Sequence record: PX393110.1
Strand: one strand, 5' to 3'
DNA: 64,000 nt
Source: a phage
Shown: in pieces, positions 3,602 through 30,335 of the stretch
Layout: every line of letters begins with the position of its first letter
Position numbering within the stretch: position 1 is the stretch's first letter
Notes under the pieces: model-generated
Seen by the model: only the letters and a program-made list of their open reading frames with translations
What the model was told of the DNA's origin: nothing
Databases searched by the model: none
Made by a program: the position numbers and the translations under genes

Positions 3602-3676
3602 ATCGTACCTTAACGAGTAAATAAAAATAGGCTGTTAACCGAGGGCGTTCCCCAAGTTAACAGCCTTTGGACCGTA

Positions 3677-4021
3677 TTAAACGGCGGCAGTCAGAAAGTT
3701 ACTGGAGATCAGGAAATCATCCAGAGCTACTTCTGTATTCTTAGGAGTATTGTCTAACTCCCACTCACCCACTCCCAGACGGATCTTAGCCACACCAGGA
3801 GCTATCTCTTCAATAGACAGCTTAGAGCCACCGATGATCTGGAGGCGAAGAGCATTTACAGCTACTGCATACCCAGAGAACGCAGTCTCTACCTGGTGAC
3901 GGAACTCCTGGTCTGAATTAACCTTAGCAGCGTAAGCAGCAGGTTCCATACCCAGTTGCTTAGCATACATCAGATGAAACATGTCCAGGTTAATCTTGTT
4001 ACCAGTAGTCTTCTTAGTCAT
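3677..4021 (-). CDS. hypothetical protein
   Basis: 114 aa ORF. Confidence 0.35.
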   Translation of the reverse strand: MTKKTTGNKINLDMFHLMYAKQLGMEPAAYAAKVNSDQEFRHQVETAFSGYAVAVNALRLQIIGGSKLSIEEIAPGVAKIRLGVGEWELDNTPKNTEVALDDFLISSNFLTAAV

Positions 4022-4538
4022 TTTCGATTTCCTCGGCAGTTACGCCAGTGATGTTTAAATACAGATCGGTCGGTAATTCTGGCAGGGTAGAGACATCCAG
4101 ATTCTCTACGTCCTTGGCCAGAGTTATGTGAGGAGAGTATTCCGCACTGATCTCAGACGGTACCTCCCCAGATGCACGGAGTCGATAGTTAAACGATTGT
4201 AGCAGATCGCTATCGAACGCCAGCACCAGGTAGTTAGCATTCTCACCGAAGATCTCATAGCGAGGATTCTTCAGATGAAGTTTGCTACCTACCAGATCAG
4301 CAATAGTTCCCTCATCCGGAGCACCAGTCCCCGGAGCATACATAAGGGTGCAGTGGTTATCGTGACCGGTATCGAAGTTAAGCTTATCATAATCAGCTAC
4401 TTCAGAGATAACCTGCTTAAGATTATCTATCCAGGCATCAGAGTCTGGACAGAATTTTACCGAGGAGTAACCCTCGTCCACGGACTGTACAAGTCCTAAC
4501 ACTACTTCAGCTTTATTCATTTTTATCACCATGGCCAT
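4014..4538 (-). CDS. 2H-family phosphoesterase (LigT / cyclic-nucleotide phosphodiesterase-like)
   Basis: two H-x-T-x motifs (GHDNHCTLMY and SPHITLAK) about 75 aa apart, the 2H superfamily hallmark. Confidence 0.45.
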   Translation of the reverse strand: MAMVIKMNKAEVVLGLVQSVDEGYSSVKFCPDSDAWIDNLKQVISEVADYDKLNFDTGHDNHCTLMYAPGTGAPDEGTIADLVGSKLHLKNPRYEIFGENANYLVLAFDSDLLQSFNYRLRASGEVPSEISAEYSPHITLAKDVENLDVSTLPELPTDLYLNITGVTAEEIEND

Positions 4539-4825
4539 GGTAGTTTATTTTCGGGCTCCTGCCTATAGTAGGAGCATTTGATACCCAACGATTCCACAAT
4601 ACTTACAGGAATCTTATCAGTTACTTCAGAGTCTTGATAGATTGGTCCGAATACTGATACGTTTGGATCTTGCAACAGTTCAGATATTAATCCAGCCTCT
4701 TCATAAGTCTCGAAGAATGCTGCGGTGGTATCTGGATTACAGCCGAGACCGGTCCATGAGGTGTAAAACTCGTTTACTCCACAGAGAGCACCGTGCTCCT
4801 TATGCACCACTAAAAATCCCAGCAT
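4526..4825 (-). CDS. hypothetical protein
   Basis: 99 aa ORF. Confidence 0.3.
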   Translation of the reverse strand: MLGFLVVHKEHGALCGVNEFYTSWTGLGCNPDTTAAFFETYEEAGLISELLQDPNVSVFGPIYQDSEVTDKIPVSIVESLGIKCSYYRQEPENKLPWPW

Positions 4826-5330
4826 CTGTGTATCCTTTAAGTTTATTTCTATACTTAACCATTTCCTGCTTAGCTATCTCATCACAGAGATTATTTACTT
4901 TGTAGCGAGGATTATTGAACTTCTGATGACCTTTGACATGCTTAACCTTAATGGACTTAGGGTTAAGATCGCGAAGCATTTCCATATGCTTATCTATGAA
5001 TTCCTTTAATGCCCATTCGCAATCGCATTGGACGACTACCCTAACACCATCGAATGCTGTCTTAGTCATGGCAAACCATAGGGTCTTCATGATCCCTTCT
5101 AGCTCTGCCCAGTTATTATCTACAGCAGTAAATCCTCCGCGAGTTATATGAGCTCGCTGCTCACCAGGAAGACGAATCCATCCTCCGAAACCAGCAGCCT
5201 TACTCTTATGACAGTACGATGCATCTGAGAAGATTGTTATATAGCCCGCAGGGTCCAGACCGCGTTCGGGAGTACCCTCGAAGTGGATAACTCTACCAAC
5301 ATCTTTCTCACCGATAGCATGTTTCTTCAT
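4800..5330 (-). CDS. ribonuclease HI-like
   Basis: RNase HI catalytic residues in order: IFSDAS (Asp), NWAELEG (Glu), QCDCEW (Asp), VKGHQKFNNPRYKVNNLCDEIA (His/Asp). Confidence 0.6.
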   Translation of the reverse strand: MKKHAIGEKDVGRVIHFEGTPERGLDPAGYITIFSDASYCHKSKAAGFGGWIRLPGEQRAHITRGGFTAVDNNWAELEGIMKTLWFAMTKTAFDGVRVVVQCDCEWALKEFIDKHMEMLRDLNPKSIKVKHVKGHQKFNNPRYKVNNLCDEIAKQEMVKYRNKLKGYTDAGIFSGA

Positions 5331-6898
5331 TACATATCCACCGTAGTTGCCTGGAACAGACCTACCACCATTTCGTGGGACGGCTTCACGACCGGACTAT
5401 CGAAGTCAATAGAGCTGTTGATGTTCTGGTTAACCATCATCAGGCTACGTACTTCCCAGCAAGCACGATCAGTCAGTACACGGTGAATTGCTGCGGTATC
5501 ACCATCCACGTCCATGTTCTGACCACCCATCGCCATCGGAGGAACCTGAATCTCCTTACCCATGTGAGGTCTGACCTTAAATCCCCATACTGAGTAACGG
5601 TGTAGGGATGGCGCACGGTTCATGAATACCGTAGCATTTTCACACAGTCTCCAGCATACTTCCAGAGCTACTCTGGACTTATTCTTGTACATACGCTGTA
5701 CTTTATTGCTGATGTCGTACATGTTGTACCCTTCGTTAGTCGGGCCACCATATAAGTTCTCCAGCTCACCCAGGATGTCTGGCTGAAGTAATTCGTACAT
5801 CATCTTGAACGGTACACCAAGAGTATCCAGAGGAAGATGCGGAGCCGAAGTAACTACAGAACGACCAGAGTAATCAACACGCTTACCTAACAGGTTACCA
5901 CGAATGCGACCACCCTTGCCTTTAAGGTTATTGATCATCGGCTTAATCAAATTACCGCGATAGTCCTTAGTACCTTCCAGGATTAGTCCGTTAACCATCT
6001 TCTGCATTACAATAGATTCACGAGGAATCAGAGATAACAATGCTTCGCTGGCTTCAGCAGTATCACGAATACTTCTGATACGGATTGCATGGCGCAGGAT
6101 TCGCAGGTAGAGTAAGTTAGTCGGATGATACGACATTACCCCATTACTGATACCGACATCACGGTAGCTCGGAGGATTCACCAGTACTGTAGTGTTATAG
6201 AAGTCGCTGAACTCCGTATAACCACTATTGACTACTGTAGGATCTTCACACTCTTCGATATAGGCTTTCATATCGGCGTGGTTAGCTACCAATGCCTGGA
6301 TAAGACTCAGGAGACCTAATTCCGATGACTCATGCTCGGACATACGACGGATCTTAATCATTACTACTGCGAGGCGCTTCGTGCTATCCTGAACTGGGAT
6401 AGTATTAGAGTAGAACATCGCATACTTCTCACGATCTTCATATTCCGGAAGAGCTGCATTAGACTCACGAACCCGCTCCCGATCATCACCAACCATCTTA
6501 GCTGCCAAACCAGCTTCCTGAACTACGAAGCGGTATCTACCGATAAGGAACTGACCGAACTCTCTCTCTGGAAACCCGAATAACGCAGCCATACGTTTGA
6601 TAGCTAATGGATTCACATAAGGAACGATCGTCTCGATGTGACCCATACGGCGGCGACGGGATTCACGATGCATCGCTACCATACCGCATACATTACACGG
6701 AGGAGCTCCCATAACCAGCTGGTTACCACACTCACACTTACCAGTTACCAGAGGTCCGAATATTCGCTGGCAGAATAGCCCACCAGTGAATGGCTTAGGA
6801 TCATGGAACTTAAGATTATACATGCCCATGTTGGTTACTTCACCACTGGACTCGGCACGGATTACAGCATCAGTTGCAATAGATAACTTTAATTTCAT
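5330..6898 (-). CDS. multisubunit RNA polymerase beta-prime subunit, N-terminal fragment
   Basis: Cys cluster then RRRRMGHIETIVPYVNP (cf. RFGHIELAAPVAHIWF); LLGKRVDYSGRSVVTSAP; NRAPSLHRYS; catalytic NMDVDGD (cf. NADFDGD). Confidence 0.75.
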   Translation of the reverse strand: MKLKLSIATDAVIRAESSGEVTNMGMYNLKFHDPKPFTGGLFCQRIFGPLVTGKCECGNQLVMGAPPCNVCGMVAMHRESRRRRMGHIETIVPYVNPLAIKRMAALFGFPEREFGQFLIGRYRFVVQEAGLAAKMVGDDRERVRESNAALPEYEDREKYAMFYSNTIPVQDSTKRLAVVMIKIRRMSEHESSELGLLSLIQALVANHADMKAYIEECEDPTVVNSGYTEFSDFYNTTVLVNPPSYRDVGISNGVMSYHPTNLLYLRILRHAIRIRSIRDTAEASEALLSLIPRESIVMQKMVNGLILEGTKDYRGNLIKPMINNLKGKGGRIRGNLLGKRVDYSGRSVVTSAPHLPLDTLGVPFKMMYELLQPDILGELENLYGGPTNEGYNMYDISNKVQRMYKNKSRVALEVCWRLCENATVFMNRAPSLHRYSVWGFKVRPHMGKEIQVPPMAMGGQNMDVDGDTAAIHRVLTDRACWEVRSLMMVNQNINSSIDFDSPVVKPSHEMVVGLFQATTVDM

Positions 6899-7968: not shown

Positions 7969-8004
7969 AGTATTAGCTCCAAATTAGATTATCCAGTGAA
8001 GCGC

Positions 8005-8075
8005 TACCGCGCCCCACCCAAAAGAACGGGCTTTATGAGCTCCCAAAAATCGGTTATTTGAAAAATAAATTTCAA
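8005..8075 (-). promoter_or_regulatory. class-2 conserved intergenic element, copy B
   Basis: CGCGCCCCACCCAAAAGAACGGGCTTTATGAGC...TCGGTTATTTGAAAAATAAA; same architecture as copy A. Confidence 0.4.
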
Positions 8076-21479: not shown

Positions 21480-22553
21480 TTATTCCAGAATAAACGGAGA
21501 CTTATCCCCGAGGCGGTTCGCGACCCATTTCACGAATGGTGAATTAACCAGATGCTCGCACTGGATAGACATGTGAGCTCCAGTAGTCTTACATAGATAA
21601 TGAGCGCCTGCTAACCACATCATCACATCCAGAGTTGATCCTGGTTGGAACTCTCGACCAACATCTTCCATTACGTATTCTAGAATACTGTGATCGCTAT
21701 TATAACGAGAAGCAGCATCTTCAAGAGTAGCGATGTAATGCTGGAAGTAGGTACGGATCTTATACCAGGAATTAAGTGATCCGAGATCAATCGTAGTTAC
21801 CGGAGCTTCATTAATGTCGTCAACATAAGCTCGGATATTACTTACCTGCTTCTTGATGTTCGACACTTCCGGATACCAGTGGAGATCATCCGTCATCACC
21901 ACATAGTTGCCCATATCTACTTTGAGCATAGTTGCGATGATTTCCTGGATGATCGTGAACTCCACCAGATTAACGTTAGTCAATCCCCAGATTAGATCAT
22001 TACTACGGTTGAATACCGTGCAGTCCAGACCACCATTACGGTACTTAAACGATAGAGCAATGTTGCAGATCATATCTGCGGTATTGATGCTGCCAATGCT
22101 GTTTACCAGACCTACATCAGAATCACGGCTGGGATCGTGAATAGTAGCCACGCACTTACGGTTACCCAGGTCAGAACGGAGGCGGTCTGTTACAGTCTGG
22201 AGTTGATCGTAGTTATACAGACGCTCACCGTAAGCACCACGCCAGGTAACCATATCATCGCTAAACATCTTAGCGCGAGGAACCATAATCGACATCCAGT
22301 TATCGATTGCATAGCCACCAGACAGTACCCACAATACTTCCCCCATAATTCCGAGGATATTGTCTTTACGTTCTGGATGAGCCATCCAACGATTAATCGG
22401 ATTACTTAACTCAACTACAGCATGACCGATGGATACTACCGCCGAAGAGTTAACAGAAGTTCTGGACTTCTGCAACTCACCAGCCTTATCCATAGTATTG
22501 ATGCTGTTAACCAGGATTTCAGTATTACTGTTACCGCGAATTACCGAGATCAT
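21480..22553 (-). CDS. thymidylate synthase-family enzyme (ThyA homolog; possible pyrimidine C5 hydroxymethyltransferase)
   Basis: ILGIMGEVLWVLSGG (cf. ELLWFLxGxTN), WRGAYGERLY (cf. PVYGxQWR), ADMICNIALSFKY (catalytic Cys region, cf. ALPPCH..QFYV), LDCTVFNRSNDLIWGLTNVNLVEF (cf. LSCQLYQRSxDxxLGxPFNIASYALL). Confidence 0.6.
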   Translation of the reverse strand: MISVIRGNSNTEILVNSINTMDKAGELQKSRTSVNSSAVVSIGHAVVELSNPINRWMAHPERKDNILGIMGEVLWVLSGGYAIDNWMSIMVPRAKMFSDDMVTWRGAYGERLYNYDQLQTVTDRLRSDLGNRKCVATIHDPSRDSDVGLVNSIGSINTADMICNIALSFKYRNGGLDCTVFNRSNDLIWGLTNVNLVEFTIIQEIIATMLKVDMGNYVVMTDDLHWYPEVSNIKKQVSNIRAYVDDINEAPVTTIDLGSLNSWYKIRTYFQHYIATLEDAASRYNSDHSILEYVMEDVGREFQPGSTLDVMMWLAGAHYLCKTTGAHMSIQCEHLVNSPFVKWVANRLGDKSPFILE

Positions 22554-23272
22554 TTAGAGTCCTTACGCACTGAATCAATAGACTTAACTGCAGAGGACAG
22601 TAACTCCAGACGGGCCTCCTGAGGGATCATACCAGATGGCTCGTTCAGGATCATAATACCTTTACCAGTATTAGTAAAACGAGCTGTGATTGATCCAGGA
22701 TACACCGGATGATTCAGAGTTACAGAATTACACAACGCAGCACCGAATCGCTCCTCGTAGGCACGCATAGTTACCTTAAGGAGAGTAGAACTGACTGCTA
22801 CAGAGTATTCAGGATCAACAACACGGAAGTTATTGTCCTCAATACTCTTATCCTTCGTATTGAAGAACAGAGTCATGTTATAATAATCAATAGACTCGTT
22901 ACTGAGACGTAATGCCTCATCACGAGCTTCCTGGCTGGCAAACATACTGTTATGCAGCAGGAAGTAAACGTACGAATCGAATACCGCACGATCACTGACG
23001 ATCAACTCGCCACGATTGTAGGCATCCTTGAACATCTGAGTTCGCTGACGAATAAGACGCAGCTGGAACTCTACCGCTTCCATAGGATCTTCTACAGCTA
23101 AGCGCAGAATATCCATATGGGATGTTACTCCCAGAGGAAGATGGTCACGAGTCTGTACTGCACGGAAGGTACATTCGGTTGATTCTTCCCAACCTTTAGC
23201 CAGGGTAGATTTACCGGTACCCTGCGCACCAGACATAATTACACTGTAGCCTGGGATACTATAGTCTCTCAT
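22550..23272 (-). CDS. P-loop nucleotide/nucleoside kinase
   Basis: Walker A MSGAQGTGKSTLA; start refined to MRDYS (ATG at 23272) with GGAGAGAA upstream. Confidence 0.55.
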   Translation of the reverse strand: MRDYSIPGYSVIMSGAQGTGKSTLAKGWEESTECTFRAVQTRDHLPLGVTSHMDILRLAVEDPMEAVEFQLRLIRQRTQMFKDAYNRGELIVSDRAVFDSYVYFLLHNSMFASQEARDEALRLSNESIDYYNMTLFFNTKDKSIEDNNFRVVDPEYSVAVSSTLLKVTMRAYEERFGAALCNSVTLNHPVYPGSITARFTNTGKGIMILNEPSGMIPQEARLELLSSAVKSIDSVRKDSK

Positions 23273-23304
23273 TATTCTCTCCAATTAAGAATCTTTCCCA
23301 CATT

Positions 23305-23335
23305 TTAACAGCCTTTCAAGACCCTAAAAGAGCGG
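23305..23335 (-). promoter_or_regulatory. class-1 conserved motif, copy 4
   Basis: TTAACAGCCTTTCAAGACCCTAAAAGAGCGG. Confidence 0.45.
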
Positions 23336-23361
23336 ACTAAAAAGGCTGGTGTAAATGTGAA

Positions 23362-24333
23362 CTAGCTAAACTTATACCAGCGAGGTCTCATACGGATCTC
23401 GTGATTCAGTTTATGTAGTTTCGAGAATTCGCAGAATGAGTTGGTGAACATCTGGCGAGTATAGAATCGCTCATCCTCTGGCATGAAGTGGAACCATTTC
23501 TCCGGTTCCCATGAATACCCGAAATGTGCACATATCTCTTTGATGTTCTGATACCACCATTCCACGAATACCTGATAACCACAGGGAGGATTCTGGTCAT
23601 TAATCATGTACCATACCCCATCCTGAGTCCCAGGTCCACATACGATAGCGTCATTATCTGTATACGCAGTCTCTTTAGAGTAGGACATAGTTGCCCAGCA
23701 TTGATATGCCATGAACGGACCTAATCCAGATACCTGTAACAGATGCTCGATAGCCTCGGTAGCGAACGGAGACTTCCATGCCCATAAGATAGGATCACTG
23801 TAGGTCTTCACCAGATAGGCTCTGGCAGCTACACTGTACTTAATATCCTCTGGACATACTTCATTAGCCATCTTAACTGCTGTGCTAAGGAAGTAGGCAT
23901 TTGATTGCTGTGGAGCGGTGAACGGAGGACCATCCTCATAACGACGTAGCTCTTCGCGACCCATGTTATGTATGTCGTCATAGCTCATCTCATAAAGAGG
24001 AAGGACTCTGCGGAAGCGATCCATATATGAATCACCACGGTTTATCATCTGGAAGAGTACTACATTAAGTGCTTTACTCTCCCAGCTTAAAGAATCGTTC
24101 TCCAGAATGTTCTTAATAGCCCACACTGTTTCACGATCGTGCTTACGGAACACGTTAGTGAATTTGAACTTACTAATCCACTTATGTTCCGTCCACGGAG
24201 GAGGCAGCTTAAGCACCTCCTTCTTATAATAAACCTCTGTACGTTCACGGTTATACTCCACATACTCCCGTAACTCCTCAGGATTTATCATCCCAAGGAG
24301 TCCTTCGTAATGCAGACCTAACGGTGTTGACAT
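23362..24333 (-). CDS. hypothetical protein (323 aa), translationally coupled to upstream GT
   Basis: start ATG overlaps upstream stop (TAATG at 24331-24335); Trp/aromatic-rich, no recognisable motif. Confidence 0.45.
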   Translation of the reverse strand: MSTPLGLHYEGLLGMINPEELREYVEYNRERTEVYYKKEVLKLPPPWTEHKWISKFKFTNVFRKHDRETVWAIKNILENDSLSWESKALNVVLFQMINRGDSYMDRFRRVLPLYEMSYDDIHNMGREELRRYEDGPPFTAPQQSNAYFLSTAVKMANEVCPEDIKYSVAARAYLVKTYSDPILWAWKSPFATEAIEHLLQVSGLGPFMAYQCWATMSYSKETAYTDNDAIVCGPGTQDGVWYMINDQNPPCGYQVFVEWWYQNIKEICAHFGYSWEPEKWFHFMPEDERFYTRQMFTNSFCEFSKLHKLNHEIRMRPRWYKFS

Positions 24334-25412
24334 TAAAGAATACCTTCTTTGGTAAAGTAGTCGATTACTTCATCCTGAAGTTCTTGTGCGTAATCCTTGC
24401 GCAGATACAGATTCTCATACTGATGTTTCAGCAGAGCATCACGATCTTTCAGTTTCTCTGCAATCTCCGCATTACTGGAGACGATCAGAGGAGCCAGCAG
24501 CTCTTCGGGGACGCCGCTCCGGATTATTGTTCCGGCAGCATCTTTATCCACCAACATCAGAGTACCAGAGCTCAGGTATTCATAATAACGGTTAGGTGGG
24601 CTGGTATAGAACGAGTTACTAGAGTTCCAGTCTTCAATAAGCAGTACCGCTGCGTATTTAGCCACTTCATCCAGCATCTCTGACAGCTTAAACTTAGGCA
24701 GCCAGTTAATAGGAGCAGCAGGCCCCAGCCACTTACGTTCTTTAGGATCCAGCTCTTCCCAGTTTTCCTGCTCGTAGCCGTCAAATCCAGCAAGACCACC
24801 AGTATGTTTAGCGATAGACATCTGAGCTTTGTAGCTAGGCACCGACATAAACAGTTCCAGACCATCCTGCTGGGAGAAGTACTGAGTGAACTTATGGAAG
24901 CGACCTTCACGAGCAGCACCGTAATACAGCAGGCTATTGTCTGGTTTATCAGATGAGCCGTAGCGAGGCTTACGACCAGGAACGTAGGTAAGACGGTTCC
25001 AGTTAATGTGGTGATAGTTCTCTTCGCTAGGGGAGTACTGATTACCCCAGGAAGTACGCTCGAATGCTGCTACTACTTTAAATGTCGTAGCTGCTGTGAT
25101 GTGTCGCCACTGCGGACCCTGGATACGCATACGTGATGAATAATCTTGACCAATCCAGTAAAACTTAGCTCCGAGGTCCGCCTGGTCTACCCAGAATTTA
25201 TACATCTCATCGCGGAACTTACAGAAGGTAGGAACACCATTGACGGCGATGATCACGTCATATTTGGTGCCATCTTCCATAGCCTTAACAAACTTAGGAG
25301 TATCATCCAGCAAGTCCGCCTGAAGTCCGTAGGCTAACCAGGATGCCAGAGTGTTACTGGCGATGATGGATTTATCGCTGCATGGCGAAAAGTTAGTTAC
25401 TGCAATTTTCAT
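24333..25412 (-). CDS. GT-B fold glycosyltransferase, phage DNA beta-glucosyltransferase-like (putative)
   Basis: MKIAVTNF... N-terminus, LLYYGAAREGRFHKFTQYFSQQDG and NRYYEYLSSGTLMLVD segments resemble T4 beta-glucosyltransferase as recalled from memory; not searched. Confidence 0.4.
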   Translation of the reverse strand: MKIAVTNFSPCSDKSIIASNTLASWLAYGLQADLLDDTPKFVKAMEDGTKYDVIIAVNGVPTFCKFRDEMYKFWVDQADLGAKFYWIGQDYSSRMRIQGPQWRHITAATTFKVVAAFERTSWGNQYSPSEENYHHINWNRLTYVPGRKPRYGSSDKPDNSLLYYGAAREGRFHKFTQYFSQQDGLELFMSVPSYKAQMSIAKHTGGLAGFDGYEQENWEELDPKERKWLGPAAPINWLPKFKLSEMLDEVAKYAAVLLIEDWNSSNSFYTSPPNRYYEYLSSGTLMLVDKDAAGTIIRSGVPEELLAPLIVSSNAEIAEKLKDRDALLKHQYENLYLRKDYAQELQDEVIDYFTKEGIL

Positions 25413-25440
25413 ATTTAATTTCTCCGTAGGCTGTCACAAT

Positions 25441-25470
25441 GTAACAGCCTTTTAGCTCATCAAAGAAGCG
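25441..25470 (-). promoter_or_regulatory. class-1 conserved motif, copy 5 (variant)
   Basis: GTAACAGCCTTTTAGCTCATCAAAGAAGCG. Confidence 0.35.
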
Positions 25471-26494
25471 AATTAGCTGATGCCCAACTCAGCCACTTAT
25501 CATTGAGATCAGTTAAGTAGGAATAGTCTTTGTTTAATCCGAATACCGTACGGTTAGTTCCATCGAACTTCATTACCCCAGCACCAGGAGCTCGGATAAT
25601 TGCATCTTCGGTAGCCGTACAATACTCTTTCAAGTATTCCTGGATGTTGGGACGAATACGACGGAACGAGCTATCTGCAGAGTCATAGTGGAACATATCT
25701 GCACAATGCCACTGTACGTAGGACTTATCTGGACGGCTAAGCAGCTCATTACGAGTTACCATATCTTTCGGAGAGTAGCCTAGCTTAGCTACGGTGACTT
25801 CGTGAATACCACCGCCATTAGAAGAGGTGTCCATTAACCAGTTCTCATCCCAGTAGAACGAGCTACCAGTACCGGTTACCTGGCCCACTTTCCATCCCAT
25901 CGCCATACCTTTAAACAACAGGTAGCAATCCTCACCTACAGTGAGTTGCTGGAAGGTCTTATCGAACAGCCAGAACATCTTCTCGCTAGTCTTGACCATA
26001 ATACCCAGGTCAGTAGCCGGAGCAGTGTTATTATGGGACTGACGATCGCAGAGTTCAACAATCTTGTAGTTACGGTTCTTGAAGCTACGGACGAACGCCA
26101 TCTCAAACTCAGATCCCTCGAAGTCGATAATGGACCGATCCAGATGGAAGATATCGTCGGCGAACCAGACATCATCATCCACGAAGTAGCAGATGTCTGG
26201 GCACCAGTCCTGCTTCTCCATTACAATCCATGCTTTATCCAGAGCATGGGCACGGATTTCTCCGATTACCGGATTTTCGTACTTAGGGCTATGACAGAAA
26301 TTAAATTGCTCATCCCCACCAAACTGCTCTTCCAGAATTGCCTTATCTTCTTCGGAGGCATCCTGAATAAAGTAGAAGAAGCGATACTCAATAGAGTCGT
26401 CAGTCTTTTTAGCATCTTTGAACGACTGAATCTGACGGAGTACCGACTTCAGACGATGATAGGTTGGGATGATAAAAGCTACTTTGGTGGTCAT
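25460..26494 (-). CDS. family-2-like (GT-A fold) glycosyltransferase
   Basis: VAFIIPTYHR N-terminus and DxD motif YFVDDDVWF. Confidence 0.5.
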   Translation of the reverse strand: MTTKVAFIIPTYHRLKSVLRQIQSFKDAKKTDDSIEYRFFYFIQDASEEDKAILEEQFGGDEQFNFCHSPKYENPVIGEIRAHALDKAWIVMEKQDWCPDICYFVDDDVWFADDIFHLDRSIIDFEGSEFEMAFVRSFKNRNYKIVELCDRQSHNNTAPATDLGIMVKTSEKMFWLFDKTFQQLTVGEDCYLLFKGMAMGWKVGQVTGTGSSFYWDENWLMDTSSNGGGIHEVTVAKLGYSPKDMVTRNELLSRPDKSYVQWHCADMFHYDSADSSFRRIRPNIQEYLKEYCTATEDAIIRAPGAGVMKFDGTNRTVFGLNKDYSYLTDLNDKWLSWASANSLL

Positions 26495-26500
26495 AATTAT

Positions 26501-27112
26501 TTATCCAATTTGACGAACTAAGCGAAACCCTTCGGCGTACGGCCACTGGGCGGAATATCCACGTAAGGTGGCTAGGGCTAAGATACTCTGGGTATCTCGG
26601 TCTGACTTAATCTGGGAGTCGAATCGTCCCATAGCCTGGCACTTACACTCAATATCGTCCTTATTCAGACGCTCGAAGTAATTAGGTTCCATCTGACCGA
26701 ACTGGGTCAGGGACTCGGCATACTCATATTCCAGGATAAGCCAGTTATACGCTCGGAGAGCTACACGAGCAGCATGATTAACTAGTTGATGGTCCTGGTG
26801 TAGGCTACTGAACGGAATATAGACTACATCCGGCCTGATTTTAGCAACATAGTCCGCAATATCCTTAGCCAATTGCGGAATATCCTTCTGAGTCATACCA
26901 TCGCCTGTGGAGGCATCGTTACGCTCCAGGCAATGTACTTCTTTGATATTCGGATAGACACCGAATGCTGCTTCGGCTTCGCCACGACGGGTCTCGTCCG
27001 GAGCAGTTACTTCGAGGATGAAGAATTGGTCATCGCGGAATTTGCTCATAATACCTCCGCAACCCAGAATCTCATCATCGTGATGTGGGCTGATAATCAG
27101 TCGTGACTTCAT
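26501..27112 (-). CDS. PIG-L/LmbE-family N-acetylglucosaminyl deacetylase
   Basis: LIISPHHDDEILGCGG (family hallmark AHPDDE) and second His-rich motif SSLHQDHQLVNH. Confidence 0.6.
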   Translation of the reverse strand: MKSRLIISPHHDDEILGCGGIMSKFRDDQFFILEVTAPDETRRGEAEAAFGVYPNIKEVHCLERNDASTGDGMTQKDIPQLAKDIADYVAKIRPDVVYIPFSSLHQDHQLVNHAARVALRAYNWLILEYEYAESLTQFGQMEPNYFERLNKDDIECKCQAMGRFDSQIKSDRDTQSILALATLRGYSAQWPYAEGFRLVRQIG

Positions 27113-27127
27113 TATTAATCCTCGCTA

Positions 27128-27163
27128 CACAAAAATGGGGTTAGGCCGTAGAGACCTAACCCC
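27128..27163 (-). terminator. intrinsic terminator-like hairpin
   Basis: minus-strand RNA: GGGGUUAGG-loop-CCUAACCCC followed by AUUUUUGUG; sits between class-1 copy 6 and the LmbE start. Confidence 0.45.
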
Positions 27164-27179
27164 GTACGCCTCTGACACC

Positions 27180-27210
27180 TTAACAGCCTTTTAGGTCATC
27201 AAACAGGCGG
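27180..27210 (-). promoter_or_regulatory. class-1 conserved motif, copy 6
   Basis: TTAACAGCCTTTTAGGTCATCAAACAGGCGG; overlaps the 3' end of the transporter gene. Confidence 0.4.
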
Positions 27211-28581
27211 AGTTTCCTTAGCCAAGAATACTTTAGGTACAAAGATCTTGAGGAACCCGAATAGAATACACAATACCCCAATCAGTACCGGAACAGCCGA
27301 TACAGCTACCAGAGTCTTCGTTACAGTTACTACGTCGCCACCTGCCCAGTTAAGTGCAGCAGCAACTACACCCATGCTTACAATCCAGAATACACGAGTT
27401 CTAGGAGCGGTCATGGACTCTACCGTAATACCTGCTGAGTCATGACCTGTAATAAAGAACAGGATCACAGACACGAGGGTAATTACCGAGAATATCCATC
27501 CGCCTGGGAAATTAGCCAGAAGCTGGAAGATATCCTGAGCACCATGTTGTAGACCAGCTACACCGAATACGGTAAACCAGACGTTACTGATGATGGTAGG
27601 GAACAGTACACATCCGAGGATCAGTTCGCGAATAGTACGGCCGTAAGAGATACGTGCCACAAACGCTCCGACGAATAATGCCCAACCTACCCAGGCTGCA
27701 TAGTAAGCATAAGGCCAGCTAGCCAGCCATTGCTTCTCTTCAGCAGTACTGCCGATGTTTACTGACATAGGAATAATCTGGAGCAGATAGCTACCAGAAT
27801 AGGTGATGGTCTTCCAGAGGTATTCGAAGAATGTACCACTTACAGCAACGAATGCCATAATAGATAGAGCTACGATTACATTATATCTGGATAACCACTT
27901 AACCCCACGATCGACACCAGTTACGGCACTAAGTACAGTACCCAGAGTCAGGAGCGCGATAATGGTGTAAGGACCAACATCCACTCCCAGGAACTCTTTA
28001 AATCCGGAACTGATCGGGCCTACTGCGTAGACGAACGACAGGGTTAAGCCTATGATGGTAGAGAAGAGTAAGCTTATCGTATTAAGGTTATTCAGAGCTC
28101 GGGACTTGAATAACTGATTAAGCGGACGGTCTTCACCACGTACATGCAGTAAGTACCCGAATGCCACCCCTACGACTGCATAAACTGCCCATGCGTTAAG
28201 TCCCCAGTCAAAGAAGGTAGTTACCATATTCTGACGTTCGGACATACCCTCCTGCTGATGGTACATAGGTTCGAGTACACCATAATAAATCATGGATACA
28301 CCCATACCGGTACTAAACATCATGGAGTAATAGGTAAAGCGATTATATTTCGGAGCACCTTTACCCAGCTTAATGTTACCATGCTTGCTGAATACAAAGA
28401 ATGCCAGGAACGCTAGGAAGATCAGCGAAGACCAGGTAAATATGAATCCATACTGAGATATGAATACAGACTTACTCCAGTCCATTACAGCACCAAACTG
28501 GGTGGGAGCTAACATAATGGCGAGTATGATACCCACCGTTACTAGCACCGTCCCCCAGGTAACTACCTTTGAATCTGACAT
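27199..28581 (-). CDS. BCCT-family (betaine/carnitine/choline-type) secondary transporter
   Basis: multi-TM protein; FSKHGNIKLGKGAPKYNRFTYYSMMFSTGMGVSMIYYGVLEP (cf. FSRYGNIRLG...WFAMLFxAGMGIGLxFxGVxEP) and VGAFVARISYGRTIREL (cf. GMFLARISRGRTIREF). Confidence 0.7.
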   Translation of the reverse strand: MSDSKVVTWGTVLVTVGIILAIMLAPTQFGAVMDWSKSVFISQYGFIFTWSSLIFLAFLAFFVFSKHGNIKLGKGAPKYNRFTYYSMMFSTGMGVSMIYYGVLEPMYHQQEGMSERQNMVTTFFDWGLNAWAVYAVVGVAFGYLLHVRGEDRPLNQLFKSRALNNLNTISLLFSTIIGLTLSFVYAVGPISSGFKEFLGVDVGPYTIIALLTLGTVLSAVTGVDRGVKWLSRYNVIVALSIMAFVAVSGTFFEYLWKTITYSGSYLLQIIPMSVNIGSTAEEKQWLASWPYAYYAAWVGWALFVGAFVARISYGRTIRELILGCVLFPTIISNVWFTVFGVAGLQHGAQDIFQLLANFPGGWIFSVITLVSVILFFITGHDSAGITVESMTAPRTRVFWIVSMGVVAAALNWAGGDVVTVTKTLVAVSAVPVLIGVLCILFGFLKIFVPKVFLAKETPPV

Positions 28582-28584
28582 TGA

Positions 28585-29493
28585 TTATTCCTCAATTACG
28601 CCCTTAGCGATTAACTGGCGACGGACGTATGCGTAGCCAGCAGGTGAAGTAGCGAGGACGATGTCCGCACTACGGAAGTTGGTTTCGATATAGAAGCACT
28701 CCTGAAGATCCCGCGTACAGAAGAGCTCAGTGCTCATCATACCCTCGCGTACGTTACATGCGTCTGCAACGAATTGCGCAACATCTTCGAAGTGGTCTAC
28801 CGAATGACTATAGCCGAATCCACGGGCATCAGTAGATATAACGTAGTTATGGCAGTACGGAGTGAAGTCAGTATCTTCGTAGGATTTACCCTGGATAGTG
28901 AAAATATCTGCATAATCCTTGAACCCGCTCGGGCTAACCAGAAGATCCCAGGCAACTACCATACCGTCGATAACATCTGCTTGAAGTACCAGAGAAGTAG
29001 TATATTCGTCCGGCGCCTTATCACAGACCAAAATTGGGGAGTCCCCCAGAAGGTCCGACATAGTGCCTGCACCCTTGCCCCCGTGAACACGATCACGGCG
29101 TACAAACGCCTCCTGAGGCTTCTGGTACAGTCTAAACGACGGTACAATCAGCGAATCAGGCATAGTTCCCAGATTAGCTTCGGAGCGAAGGCAGGATAAT
29201 TGGTCAGCTTTAGACCACGTACTTTCGATAGCGTGCAGATCGTTACCGATTTTGGTATAGATGTAGCTTTCCGGATTGCGGTACTTACCCTGATTCAGCT
29301 CTTCGATAACCGAGTCGAAATAAGGAAGTCGTACTGATCCCTCACGAGGAGCAGTTAACGCTACTGAACCATGCTTGGTATGATCCTGATCAACTACCAT
29401 AACCTGGTCCAGACTTACACCCATCTTAAGAATCTGGGATAGTGTAGCTGCTGTGTGGTTAGTGCAGCCAATCATCAAATCTAACTTCTTCAT
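28585..29493 (-). CDS. hypothetical enzyme, possibly ATP-grasp-like ligase
   Basis: glycine-rich HGGKGAG and C-terminal FYIETNFRSAD resembling the ATP-grasp E-x-N-x-R motif; weak. Confidence 0.3.
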   Translation of the reverse strand: MKKLDLMIGCTNHTAATLSQILKMGVSLDQVMVVDQDHTKHGSVALTAPREGSVRLPYFDSVIEELNQGKYRNPESYIYTKIGNDLHAIESTWSKADQLSCLRSEANLGTMPDSLIVPSFRLYQKPQEAFVRRDRVHGGKGAGTMSDLLGDSPILVCDKAPDEYTTSLVLQADVIDGMVVAWDLLVSPSGFKDYADIFTIQGKSYEDTDFTPYCHNYVISTDARGFGYSHSVDHFEDVAQFVADACNVREGMMSTELFCTRDLQECFYIETNFRSADIVLATSPAGYAYVRRQLIAKGVIEE

Positions 29494-29520
29494 TTTAATT
29501 CCTCAGTTAACTTGTACAAC

Positions 29521-29550
29521 CTAACAGCCTTTCGAACCCTAAAAAGAGCG
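29521..29550 (-). promoter_or_regulatory. class-1 conserved motif, copy 7 (variant)
   Basis: CTAACAGCCTTTCGAACCCTAAAAAGAGCG; about 27 nt upstream of ATG with GAGGA in between. Confidence 0.4.
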
Positions 29551-29594
29551 AAATAATAGATATCTAGCCACCTCGTAAGATGGCTATGTATATA

Positions 29595-30335
29595 TTACTT
29601 TAATTCGGAGAGATCTGCTATCTTCACCTTAGCTGTTACATCCCAGATTCCTTCACCAAATCCGGTATCTTCCAGCAGCTTAGGCACTTCACGTTTCTGT
29701 ACCTTAGACTGCTCGTACTTAAGCAGAGGAATATTACCGGTCTTATCCGATTGATCCCACAGATAAGTAGCAGCACCAATGTTATCGAACAGTGCGAGAT
29801 CTGGATTAAACTGGGTAAGGAGTCGGCAGTCCCAGTGAGATTTATGTTCCTCGAAAGGATTAGTCTCCGTACCACGCTGACGATACTCGTAGTTAGGAGT
29901 ACCGATCACGATTTTAGCCTTAGACTGGAATAGCTTAGACAACACCATAAGCCCATCTTCGCTATCCAGATGCTCCAACACATCTAGCCAGATAATAGTG
30001 CCGAATTTATCCAGCTCTTCAATAGGAAGATCTTTCAGCAGTTCAACGATATTGCAGATGTAGATATCGCTATATACATTTACACTGCCTTTGATGTAGT
30101 CTTCGCAGATGTCCAGACCTGTGATCTGACCTTCGAATCCTGCGTTACGGAGAGCTAGACCGATCTCTCCACGACCTAATCCCATATCCAGGATTGGCCC
30201 GGAGATAATTTCGTTACGGAGCATCCATTGGAGAAAGTGCTTCTGGACTAAGTAGGAGGTACCTCCGTTGCCCAGTGAAGCCTTCGTGACCTTAGTACCA
30301 GGAACGAAGTTACACTCGATATGTTTACCAAACAT
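29595..30335 (-). CDS. class I SAM-dependent methyltransferase (small-molecule type)
   Basis: motif I ILDMGLGRGEIG; post-I acidic GLDICEDY; TIIWLDVLEHL. Confidence 0.55.
   Translation of the reverse strand: MFGKHIECNFVPGTKVTKASLGNGGTSYLVQKHFLQWMLRNEIISGPILDMGLGRGEIGLALRNAGFEGQITGLDICEDYIKGSVNVYSDIYICNIVELLKDLPIEELDKFGTIIWLDVLEHLDSEDGLMVLSKLFQSKAKIVIGTPNYEYRQRGTETNPFEEHKSHWDCRLLTQFNPDLALFDNIGAATYLWDQSDKTGNIPLLKYEQSKVQKREVPKLLEDTGFGEGIWDVTAKVKIADLSELK

What the first reader, a model, noticed from the sequence alone, without database searches (positions are those of the whole stretch)
4014..4538. 2H-phosphoesterase among early genes: candidate anti-CBASS (Acb1-like) or RNA-repair enzyme
Seen in sequence: two H-x-T-x motifs (HCTL, HITL) ~75 residues apart in a ~170-aa protein. 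Established: the 2H superfamily includes LigT and 2',3'-cyclic phosphodiesterases, and phage Acb1 proteins that cleave cyclic-oligonucleotide immune signals. Inference: placement among small early genes fits an anti-defence role.
Basis: partly seen in the sequence, partly recalled or inferred. Interest (0 to 1): 0.55.

Follow-up and report, generated by a model that had tools for sequence, protein, structure and literature searches.

The report
Divergent Acb1-family phage phosphodiesterase gene
This is a real 168-residue phage gene for a two-histidine (2H) phosphodiesterase of the Acb1 family, whose tested members destroy the cyclic-nucleotide alarm signals of bacterial CBASS immunity; it is a diverged, untested member of a known kind, and its near-identical ortholog is already catalogued.

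Summary
A minus-strand ORF at 4014-4538 carries HCTL and HITL 75 residues apart. Relatives show the true start is 4520, giving 168 aa.

The window is 97% identical to Escherichia phage vB_EcoM_IME392, where the gene is annotated only as hypothetical.

Evidence for the Acb1 family:
- The protein just passes Pfam's Acb1 model (27.6 bits against a cut-off of 27).
- It shares PHROG 755 with T4 Acb1 (gp57B).
- An exhaustive profile search recovers essentially only Acb1-family proteins.
- Its subclade profile matches canonical Acb1 at 99.8% (hhalign).

The catalytic tetrad and the Tyr12, Trp74 and Glu141 equivalents are kept. The C-terminal Trp lid is missing and a conserved 15-residue N-terminal extension is present, as in PDE-9.

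No RNA ligase or polynucleotide kinase partner was found.

"Early" placement is unproven. The gene sits in an apparent operon with an RNA polymerase beta' fragment and RNase H.

The IME392 ortholog is already listed, untested, among 75 phage 2H PDEs in a 2025 preprint.

Verdict: probable immune-signal phosphodiesterase, a new member of a known kind, of low-to-moderate interest.

The parts
4014..4520 (-). Acb1-family 2H phosphodiesterase gene (168 aa; the longest ORF extends to 4538 but that start is not conserved)
4344..4355 (-). First catalytic motif H56-C-T58-L, equivalent to T4/FBB1 Acb1 H44/T46
   Evidence: Read from the sequence. Invariant H and T in 56 family representatives.
4119..4130 (-). 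Second catalytic motif H131-I-T133-L, equivalent to Acb1 H113/T115
   Evidence: Read from the sequence. Alignments.
4476..4520 (-). N-terminal extension (residues 1-15, MNKAEVVLGLVQSVD) preceding the G-Y18 strand; candidate N-terminal lid
   Evidence: Conserved in the subclade as MxKAxxxLxxL. It has the same length and position as the experimentally defined N-terminal lid of BCSR5 2H PDE-9. The model gives a low-confidence helix at residues 3-10.
4014..4034 (-). C-terminus E163-EIEND-stop. E163 is equivalent to Acb1 E141. The protein ends at the equivalent of D146, so the Trp147 lid is absent
3619..3665 (-). Hairpin (3630-3665) plus U-rich tract (3619-3629) after the next gene: terminator-like end of the apparent transcription unit. 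It overlaps a conserved 'AAAGGCTGTTAA' intergenic motif
   Evidence: Fold gives -25.6 kcal/mol, z = -6.1. Motif survey.
4800..5330 (-). RNase H gene two genes upstream in the same unit. A homolog is also linked to the Acb1-like gene in a distant relative
   Evidence: Pfam RNase_H 1.8e-8 and PHROG 531. L013 linkage.
5330..6898 (-). RNA polymerase beta' N-terminal fragment gene heading the tightly packed block
   Evidence: ORF with an MDVDGD motif. Rpb1 domains 1 and 2 in the L009 homolog. IME392 annotation.

Best explanation
The gene encodes a metal-independent 2H phosphodiesterase of the Acb1 family.

Mechanism, by analogy with FBB1/T4 Acb1 and BCSR5 2H PDE-9:
- The two HxT motifs (H56/T58, H131/T133) perform acid-base catalysis.
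- A ribose 2'-OH attacks the adjacent 3'-5' phosphodiester of a cyclic di- or trinucleotide immune signal, such as 3'3'-cGAMP or cA3/cAAG.
- This opens the ring through a 2',3'-cyclic phosphate intermediate that is then hydrolysed.
- CBASS-type effectors are therefore never activated and the phage escapes abortive infection.

The bases would be held by Y18, F91 and E163, the equivalents of Acb1 Y12, W74 and E141. The canonical C-terminal Trp lid is absent, so the conserved N-terminal 15 residues probably act as the lid, as in PDE-9.

Shown here: family membership, the catalytic tetrad, the predicted fold, purifying selection and the operon context.

Inferred: the substrate, the lid role and the anti-CBASS effect.
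For: Sequence-family evidence:
- Pfam Acb1 is the only family above threshold (27.6 bits against 27).
- The closer subclade members P0003, P0004 and P0006 score 47-53 bits. That is similar to the biochemically active PDE-9 at 56 bits.
- The protein falls in the same PHROG (755) as T4 Acb1 and PDE-9.
- tblastn against 50,697 phage records finds, beyond the two orthologs, weak hits almost all to T4-like phages (Escherichia, Acinetobacter, Cronobacter and others). The one examined (GEC-3S) is the gene 57B ortholog by synteny.
- An exhaustive HMM search of 1.84 billion representatives gives 57 hits. All 56 sequences in the alignment built from them (the window protein, 53 hits or homologs, T4 Acb1 and GEC-3S 57B) match Pfam Acb1.
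- A profile of the subclade alone hits PDB Acb1 7t26 (2.4e-7) and PDE-9 9q2g (1.7e-5) first.
- hhalign of the subclade against C-lid Acb1 proteins gives 99.8%, E = 7e-30, over 154 columns.

Structure evidence:
- The AF2 model has pLDDT 86.
- Foldseek gives the same order, and BFVD hits are named Acb1.

Residues and selection:
- The catalytic tetrad and the Y12, W74 and E141 equivalents are conserved. Residue roles come from PMC9117128.
- dN/dS is 0.12.

Literature:
- All three purified structural-group-3 enzymes (T4 Acb1, PDE-8, PDE-9) cleave CBASS messengers broadly (bioRxiv 10.1101/2025.08.21.671373).
- The IME392 ortholog is in that paper's curated list of 2H PDEs.
Against: - No activity data exist for this protein or any member of its subclade.
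- The Pfam score is only 0.6 bits above threshold.
- Two of the four aromatic base-stacking positions of FBB1 Acb1 are not kept. The F107 equivalent is I124 or S125, and W147 is absent because the protein ends at the equivalent of D146.
- Deleting the lid of T4 Acb1 abolished its effect in vivo.
- The N-terminal extension contains no aromatic residue, and its lid role rests only on length and position.
- The Ser after the first motif (HxTxxYS), nearly invariant in the family, is Ala in this lineage.
- Some phage 2H PDE structural groups showed no activity on any of the 18 messengers tested, so fold does not guarantee substrate.
- The gene is persistently linked to an RNase H gene, which could point to RNA metabolism.
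- The AF2 model was built on an alignment of Acb1-family sequences, so the fold ranking is not fully independent of the sequence result.
Confidence: 0.6

Rival explanations
1. It is a 2H phosphodiesterase aimed at a different or still unknown nucleotide. Candidates include type III CRISPR cA3/cA4, 2'-5'-linked oligoadenylate-like signals and other second messengers. In this reading it is an immune-signal or nucleotide PDE, but not an anti-CBASS enzyme in the T4 sense.
For: - Viral 2H PDEs differ strongly in substrate range, and specificity is set by the core, not the lid. Some groups cleaved nothing in an 18-compound panel.
- This subclade has changed core positions (F107 to I/S, S to A after the first HxT motif) and lid architecture.
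- It is only 25-33% identical to any tested enzyme.
Against: - Its nearest tested relatives by sequence and fold are all broad CBASS-signal degraders.
- E163, the equivalent of the adenine-N6 contact E141, is kept.
- E. coli hosts commonly carry CBASS; this last point rests on established knowledge and was not tested here.
Confidence: 0.2
2. It is an RNA end-healing or RNA-processing enzyme. It would act as a ThpR/LigT-like 2',3'-cyclic phosphodiesterase or 2'-5' ligase. Its role would be repair of host-cleaved tRNA/mRNA, or action together with the neighbouring RNase H.
For: - The PHROG 755 label is 'RNA ligase'.
- An RNase H gene is linked to it in this lineage and in a 42%-identity relative, with a different gene order.
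Against: - LigT-type Pfam models are far below threshold (2_5_RNA_ligase2 at 12.8 bits against 27; LigT_PEase gives no hit).
- The 'RNA ligase' label is the legacy name of T4 gp57B, which is Acb1 itself.
- tblastn with T4 Pnk, Rnl1 and Rnl2 against the IME392 genome and the window finds nothing below E = 1.
- No RNA ligase or kinase-phosphatase family appears among the Pfam families listed for 112 non-structural IME392 ORFs. The second list was truncated to 25 of 41 families.
- The RNase H linkage may simply be inherited synteny.
Confidence: 0.12
3. It is a catalytically weakened or non-enzymatic relic, for example a binder or sponge, that keeps the motifs by descent.
For: It has lost the Trp lid and one aromatic contact, and it scores only marginally against Pfam.
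Against: - Purifying selection is strong (dN/dS 0.12).
- The tetrad is invariant across a subclade reaching down to 30% identity.
- Thirty-five of 56 family representatives also lack the C-terminal Trp.
- PDE-9 lacks it too and is active.
Confidence: 0.04

Closest known systems
Acb1 (anti-CBASS 1) of phage T4 (gp57B) and Erwinia phage FBB1, PDB 7T26/7T27, Pfam PF23474
   Same: - Same Pfam family and same PHROG.
- HxT/HxT tetrad present.
- Equivalents of Y12, W74 (as Phe) and E141 kept.
- Single-domain phage protein of about 150-170 aa.

   Different: - Only about 21-33% identity.
- No C-terminal lid (residues 145-152 with W147).
- The F107 equivalent is not aromatic.
- There are 6 extra N-terminal residues relative to T4, forming a 15-residue extension.
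- The genomic context differs: an RNAP beta'/RNase H unit rather than 57A/gene 1.

2H PDE-9 of Burkholderia phage BCSR5 (QRE00328.1; PDB 9Q2G/9Q2Y)
   Same: - Acb1-family core.
- N-terminal extension of the same length before the G-x-Y strand, where PDE-9 has its experimentally defined lid.
- No C-terminal Trp lid.

   Different: - About 25% identity.
- The N-terminal sequences are only loosely similar (A-x-h-L pattern), and this protein has no aromatic residue there whereas PDE-9 has Y9.
- PDE-9's selectivity, cleaving 3'3'-cGAMP while sparing 2'3'-c-di-AMP and so not triggering Panoptes, cannot be transferred without a test.
Bacterial LigT/ThpR and YjcG 2',3'-cyclic phosphodiesterases / 2'-5' RNA ligases (e.g. 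PDB 4QAK, 5LDI, 2D4G)
   Different: - Sequence models are below threshold.
- Superposition is poorer (rmsd 3.3-3.8 Å).
- These are cellular RNA-end enzymes, and no RNA-repair partners were found in this phage.
Eukaryotic-virus 2H PDEs (coronavirus NS2, rotavirus VP3, penguinpox cGAMP PDE 9BKQ)
   Same: They use the same fold and the same strategy of degrading host nucleotide immune messengers. The poxvirus enzyme also uses an N-terminal lid.

Membership tests
Acb1 family in the broad sense (Pfam PF23474 / PHROG 755) | Match to the family profile above the curated threshold | tested here: met
   The match is 27.6-27.7 bits against a gathering score of 27.0, which is marginal. Supporting results: PHROG 755 at 5e-10; hhalign of the subclade against canonical members at 99.8%, E = 7e-30; subclade relatives at 47-53 bits.
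Acb1 family in the broad sense (Pfam PF23474 / PHROG 755) | HxT/HxT catalytic tetrad (H44, T46, H113, T115 in T4/FBB1) | tested here: met
   H56, T58, H131 and T133 align to the tetrad. Both His and the first Thr are invariant in 56 representatives.
Acb1 family in the broad sense (Pfam PF23474 / PHROG 755) | Compact 2H fold closest to solved Acb1 structures | tested here: met
Acb1 family in the broad sense (Pfam PF23474 / PHROG 755) | Cleaves cyclic di-/trinucleotide CBASS signals 3' of adenosine and blocks CBASS | not testable with these tools
   This needs biochemistry and phage genetics. The near-identical IME392 ortholog is listed but was not purified in bioRxiv 10.1101/2025.08.21.671373.
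Canonical T4/FBB1-type Acb1 | Base contacts Y12, W74 and E141 | tested here: met
   Y18, F91 (Phe for Trp, as in most family members) and E163. Residue roles come from PMC9117128.
Canonical T4/FBB1-type Acb1 | Aromatic residue at the F107 position | tested here: not met
   The position aligns to I124 or S125, next to a 2-residue insertion. Most other family members have F, Y or W here.
Canonical T4/FBB1-type Acb1 | C-terminal lid (residues 145-152) with W147 | tested here: not met
   The protein ends at D168, equivalent to T4 D146. All nine subclade members end at ...EEIK/EEIEND. Thirty-five of 56 family representatives also lack the Trp. It is therefore not filed as T4-type.
N-terminal-lid Acb1-like PDE (BCSR5 2H PDE-9 type) | N-terminal segment of about 15 residues before the G-x-Y strand that closes over the active site, and no C-terminal lid | tested here: inconclusive
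   An extension of matching length and position is present and conserved in the subclade (MxKAxxxLxxL), and the C-lid is absent. Closure over the site cannot be shown: the first 10 residues of the model have mean pLDDT 52 and the next 10 have 72.
LigT/ThpR 2',3'-cyclic phosphodiesterase / 2'-5' RNA ligase | Match to LigT_PEase or 2_5_RNA_ligase2 profiles above threshold | tested here: not met
   2_5_RNA_ligase2 scores 12.8 bits against 27, and LigT_PEase gives no hit. No NCBIfam hit.
LigT/ThpR 2',3'-cyclic phosphodiesterase / 2'-5' RNA ligase | Works with RNA-repair partners (RNA ligase, polynucleotide kinase-phosphatase) in the same genome | tested here: not met
   tblastn with T4 Pnk, Rnl1 and Rnl2 gives no hit below E = 1. 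No such Pfam family appears among those listed for 112 IME392 ORFs. Sensitivity is limited, and one list was truncated.

The most novel reading that the evidence does not exclude
The protein founds a small, distinct subclade of Acb1-like enzymes. About nine representatives are known, from enterobacterial-type phages and metagenomic contigs.

The subclade replaced the C-terminal Trp lid with a conserved N-terminal lid. It also lost one aromatic base contact. This gives a shifted substrate range. For example, it might cleave CBASS signals while sparing the Panoptes decoy 2'3'-c-di-AMP, or it might target a signal not yet in the test panels.

It is co-expressed with the phage's own RNA polymerase subunit and RNase H.
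Probability: 0.25. Interest if true: 0.45.

Novelty: new member of a known kind. Interest (0 to 1): 0.25.

Why it matters
If it is active, it adds a diverged E. coli-phage example to the growing set of viral 2H phosphodiesterases that erase nucleotide immune signals.

It is also a second, independent case of the N-terminal-lid, no-Trp-lid architecture so far solved only for a Burkholderia phage enzyme.

That would be useful for mapping how core changes set substrate specificity, and so which of CBASS, type III CRISPR and Panoptes a phage evades or triggers. It would also improve annotation, since GenBank calls the gene 'hypothetical' and PHROGs calls the family 'RNA ligase'.

It does not open a new question. 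The family, chemistry and biological role are established, and the ortholog is already listed in a 2025 survey.

Tried and rejected
- **Single-sequence searches.** A single-sequence search against PDB gave nothing. NCBIfam gave only a spurious rpe hit. The k-mer-seeded homolog search with the single protein found only two close homologs. Profiles were needed.
- **The search for related loci.** Running it with the subclade alignment failed because no stretch was conserved enough.
- **Spurious hit.** P0007 (3,390 aa, 15 matched stretches, E = 1.7e-23) is a subtilisin plus Ig-repeat protein. Its 'DHIQLAFTSGHDNGATL' repeats mimic 'FDTGHDNHCTL'. It was rejected as spurious.
- **The 174-aa start at 4538.** Rejected, because the frame is not conserved in relatives.
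- **RNA-repair reading.** Searches for T4 Pnk, Rnl1 and Rnl2 and a Pfam scan of IME392 ORFs found no partner.
- **Sigma-70 promoter scan.** Sites are fewer than expected (11 against 20.6), so host-type early promoters cannot be used to date the gene.
- **Hobbs et al. 2022 supplements.** The held files do not mention IME392.
- **Lid position in the model.** I could not inspect model coordinates, so the position of the N-terminal helix relative to the active site is untested.

Full report
**Observation.** A minus-strand ORF spans window 4014-4538 (174 aa).
- HCTL is encoded at 4355-4344 and HITL at 4130-4119. I checked both by hand.
- These are the only HxT motifs in the protein, and their histidines are 75 residues apart.
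- Shuffling the protein 200,000 times gave two or more HxT[LIVM] motifs in 0.09% of cases.
- The longest-ORF start is probably wrong. In the relatives L010 and EP_H11 the A-run before the second ATG is one base shorter, so the upstream ATGs fall out of frame.
- L009, IME392 and EP_H11 all call a 168-aa product beginning MNKAE.
- The gene is therefore 4014-4520. Its start sits just after the stop of the upstream ORF (4526-4825), and its stop overlaps the start of the downstream ORF (3677-4021).
- dN/dS against the 92%-identical homolog is 0.12. Against the 71%-identical homolog pN is 0.19 and pS is 0.77. It is a real, constrained gene.

**Source and context.** The region is 97% identical in DNA to Escherichia phage vB_EcoM_IME392 (116 kb) and 94% identical to phage EP_H11. 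In both, the ortholog is annotated 'hypothetical protein'.
- The phage encodes split RNA polymerase beta' fragments, DNA polymerase I, Pol X and an NAD-dependent ligase.
- It also carries a thymidine-hypermodification cassette.
- All non-structural genes in the window (1 to about 50.2 kb) are on the minus strand. Structural genes follow on the plus strand.
- No intergenic gap longer than 30 nt lies between 7968 and 3677.
- The gene order there is orf112, orf239, RNAP beta' N-fragment (5330-6898), RNase H (4800-5330; Pfam 1.8e-8, PHROG 531), orf99, the 2H gene and orf114.
- The block is preceded by a conserved 'class B' intergenic motif in the gap 7969-8075.
- It is followed by a 'class A' motif merged with a -25.6 kcal/mol hairpin (z = -6.1) and a U tract at 3619-3665.
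- Sigma-70-like sites are depleted.
- The gene therefore belongs to the pre-late, non-structural arm and is apparently co-transcribed with an RNAP subunit. That it is an 'early' gene, or that it sits in a block of small early genes, is not demonstrated.

**Family assignment from sequence.**
- Pfam gives Acb1 (PF23474) as the only family above threshold, and marginally so (27.6 bits against 27.0). The general 2'-5' RNA ligase model scores 12.8 bits against 27.
- PHROGs places the protein in phrog_755, labelled 'RNA ligase' (5e-10).
- T4 gp57B, which is Acb1 itself and is still labelled 'RNA ligase' in RefSeq, scores 228 bits in the same PHROG. BCSR5 PDE-9 scores 74 bits there. The label is a legacy name, not evidence for ligase function.
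- tblastn against 50,697 phage records finds, apart from the two orthologs, only weak hits (29-33% identity), almost all to T4-like phages. The one I examined (GEC-3S) is the gene following 57A and dNMP kinase, which is the 57B/Acb1 ortholog.
- Pairwise BLASTP gives 9e-11 to GEC-3S 57B and 1e-5 to T4 Acb1.
- An exhaustive profile search of 1.84 billion cluster representatives returned 57 hits. One of them (P0007) is a spurious repeat protein.
- I built a 56-sequence alignment from the window protein, 53 of those hits or homologs, T4 Acb1 and GEC-3S 57B. All 56 sequences match Pfam Acb1.
- A profile built only from the nine closest sequences, with no T4-like sequence included, hits PDB Acb1 7t26 (2.4e-7) and PDE-9 9q2g (1.7e-5) first. 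YjcG follows at 0.009 and LigT is not hit at all.
- hhalign of that subclade against 14 canonical C-lid Acb1 proteins gives 99.8% probability and E = 7e-30 over 154 columns.

**Structure.** An AlphaFold2 model built on 58 family sequences has mean pLDDT 86 and pTM 0.81.
- Foldseek gives the same order.
- BFVD returns the IME392 ortholog and proteins named Acb1.
- The margin over generic 2H enzymes is real but moderate, and the model is not independent of the alignment.

**Residue-level comparison.** Hobbs et al. (PMC9117128) define these features for FBB1/T4 Acb1:
- a tetrad of H44, T46, H113 and T115;
- stacking residues Y12, W74, F107 and W147;
- the adenine-N6 contact E141;
- a C-terminal lid at residues 145-152.

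In this protein the tetrad is H56, T58, H131 and T133. Y12 corresponds to Y18, W74 to F91 (Phe in most family members) and E141 to E163.

Two features are missing:
- The F107 position aligns to I124 or S125, beside a 2-residue insertion.
- The protein ends at D168, which corresponds to T4 D146. W147 and the whole lid are therefore absent.

All nine subclade members end the same way (...EEIK/EEIEND). All share an N-terminal extension with the pattern MxKAxxxLxxL ahead of the invariant E-G-Y.

Doherty et al. (bioRxiv 10.1101/2025.08.21.671373) solved BCSR5 PDE-9.
- They showed that its lid is the N-terminal 15 residues, not a C-terminal tail.
- They showed that lids are exchangeable and that the core sets specificity.
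- PDE-9 cleaves 3'3'-cGAMP well but 2'3'-c-di-AMP poorly, and so does not trigger the Panoptes system.
- T4 Acb1 lacking its lid was inactive in vivo.

The present protein matches PDE-9 in architecture: 17 residues before the Tyr against 18 in PDE-9, and no C-terminal lid. The sequence similarity of the two N-termini is weak, and that part of the model has low confidence (pLDDT 52-72). The lid assignment is an inference.

Among the 56 aligned family members, 35 lack the C-terminal Trp. The Trp lid therefore defines the T4 type, not the family.

**Prior knowledge.** The IME392 ortholog (AXY86065.1, 99.4% identical) appears in Supplementary Table 1 of the Doherty preprint among 75 curated phage 2H PDEs.
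- It carries no 'PDE n' number, which means it was not purified or tested.
- The precomputed Pfam annotation of the metagenomic homologs is also PF23474.
- The identification as a phage 2H PDE is therefore not new. The lid architecture, the residue changes and the operon context described here are additions.

**RNA-repair alternative.**
- tblastn with T4 Pnk, Rnl1 and Rnl2 against the full IME392 genome and the window gave nothing below E = 1.
- Pfam scans of 112 non-structural IME392 ORFs listed no RNA ligase, RtcB or kinase-phosphatase family. The second list showed only 25 of 41 families.
- The one point in favour of an RNA role is linkage to RNase H.
- The 71%-identity relative keeps the order RNAP, RNase H, orf99, 2H.
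- A 110-kb metagenomic contig carrying a 42%-identity homolog has a homologous RNase H (30% identity, 3e-21) directly downstream of it.
- This may be inherited synteny within one phage lineage. I treat it as a caveat, not as evidence.

**Conclusion.** The protein is a genuine, selected, probably active Acb1-family 2H phosphodiesterase.
- The best-supported function is metal-independent opening of cyclic di- or trinucleotide immune signals through a 2',3'-cyclic phosphate intermediate, blunting CBASS-type defence (confidence about 0.6).
- A different nucleotide substrate has a probability of about 0.2.
- An RNA-end role has a probability of about 0.12.
- It is a diverged new member of a known kind. 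The PDE-9-like lid arrangement is its only mildly unusual feature.
- Interest is low to moderate.

Noticed in passing
window minus strand. Class A core at 3667, 14274, 17875, 21459, 23315, 25451, 27190, 29531, 30372, 33722, 39167, 44374, 45364, 46829, 48061, 48243, 48301, 48908 and 50254. Class B core at 2922, 8032, 11501, 11880 and 34297.: There are two families of conserved intergenic motifs, all on the strand of the non-structural genes. Class A reads about 'CCGCTCTTTT-N6-8-TCGAAAGGCTGTTAAGGTGT'; it has 19 copies in the window and 25 in IME392, and is often fused to a GC hairpin plus T-run. Class B is an AT-rich stretch followed by 'AAAGCCCGTTCTTTTGGGTGGGGCG', with 5-6 copies. Sigma-70-like sites are depleted. 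These are probably phage-specific promoter, terminator or regulatory signals of two temporal classes.
   Followed up: partly
window 21480-30335 (-): A thymidine-hypermodification-type cassette:
- thymidylate-synthase-like gene (21480-22553);
- AAA_28 (22550-23284);
- 5-hmdU DNA kinase (23362-24333, 4.8e-35);
- PIG-L-type deacetylase (26501-27112);
- a full-length BCCT betaine/carnitine/choline transporter (27199-28581, 4e-92), which is unusual for a phage and might import the modifying amine;
- a weak methyltransferase match (29595-30335).

   Followed up: partly
window 4800-5330 (-); L013:8501-9325; L009:2682-3218: An RNase H gene stays linked to the Acb1-like gene across relatives down to 42%/30% identity, although the gene order is inverted in L013. 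This is either inherited synteny or a functional link.
   Followed up: partly
PDB 8hds chain A residues about 472-617 (not in the window): The portal protein of cyanophage Pam3 carries a C-terminal domain that matches the Acb1 family profile (2.5e-16 with the 56-sequence alignment). In addition, the tested PDE-8 (Edwardsiella phage ZHS_4) and the BcepSauron homolog sit next to portal genes or are mis-annotated as 'prohead protease'. Some Acb1-like domains may be attached to the virion.
   Followed up: no
P0007 (one search hit list): This 3,390-aa subtilisin plus Ig-repeat protein scored E = 1.7e-23 with 15 matched stretches. The cause is its 'DHIQLAFTSGHDNGATL' repeats, which resemble the region around the first HxT motif. 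It is a false positive of the profile search.
   Followed up: yes
window 4335-4337 (-), residue A62: The Ser of the near-invariant H-x-T-x-x-Y-S signature is Ala in the window protein and its two closest homologs (YAP), but Ser in most of the rest of the subclade. Its significance for catalysis is unknown.
   Followed up: no
IME392 record 110076-110522 and elsewhere in IME392 (outside the window); L013:12019-12450: The phage lineage also carries other candidate counter-defence or nucleotide-signalling genes. These are a NADAR domain, DUF4326, a YpsA-SLOG domain, a PinA-like Lon inhibitor and an Rv2179c-like exoribonuclease.
   Followed up: no
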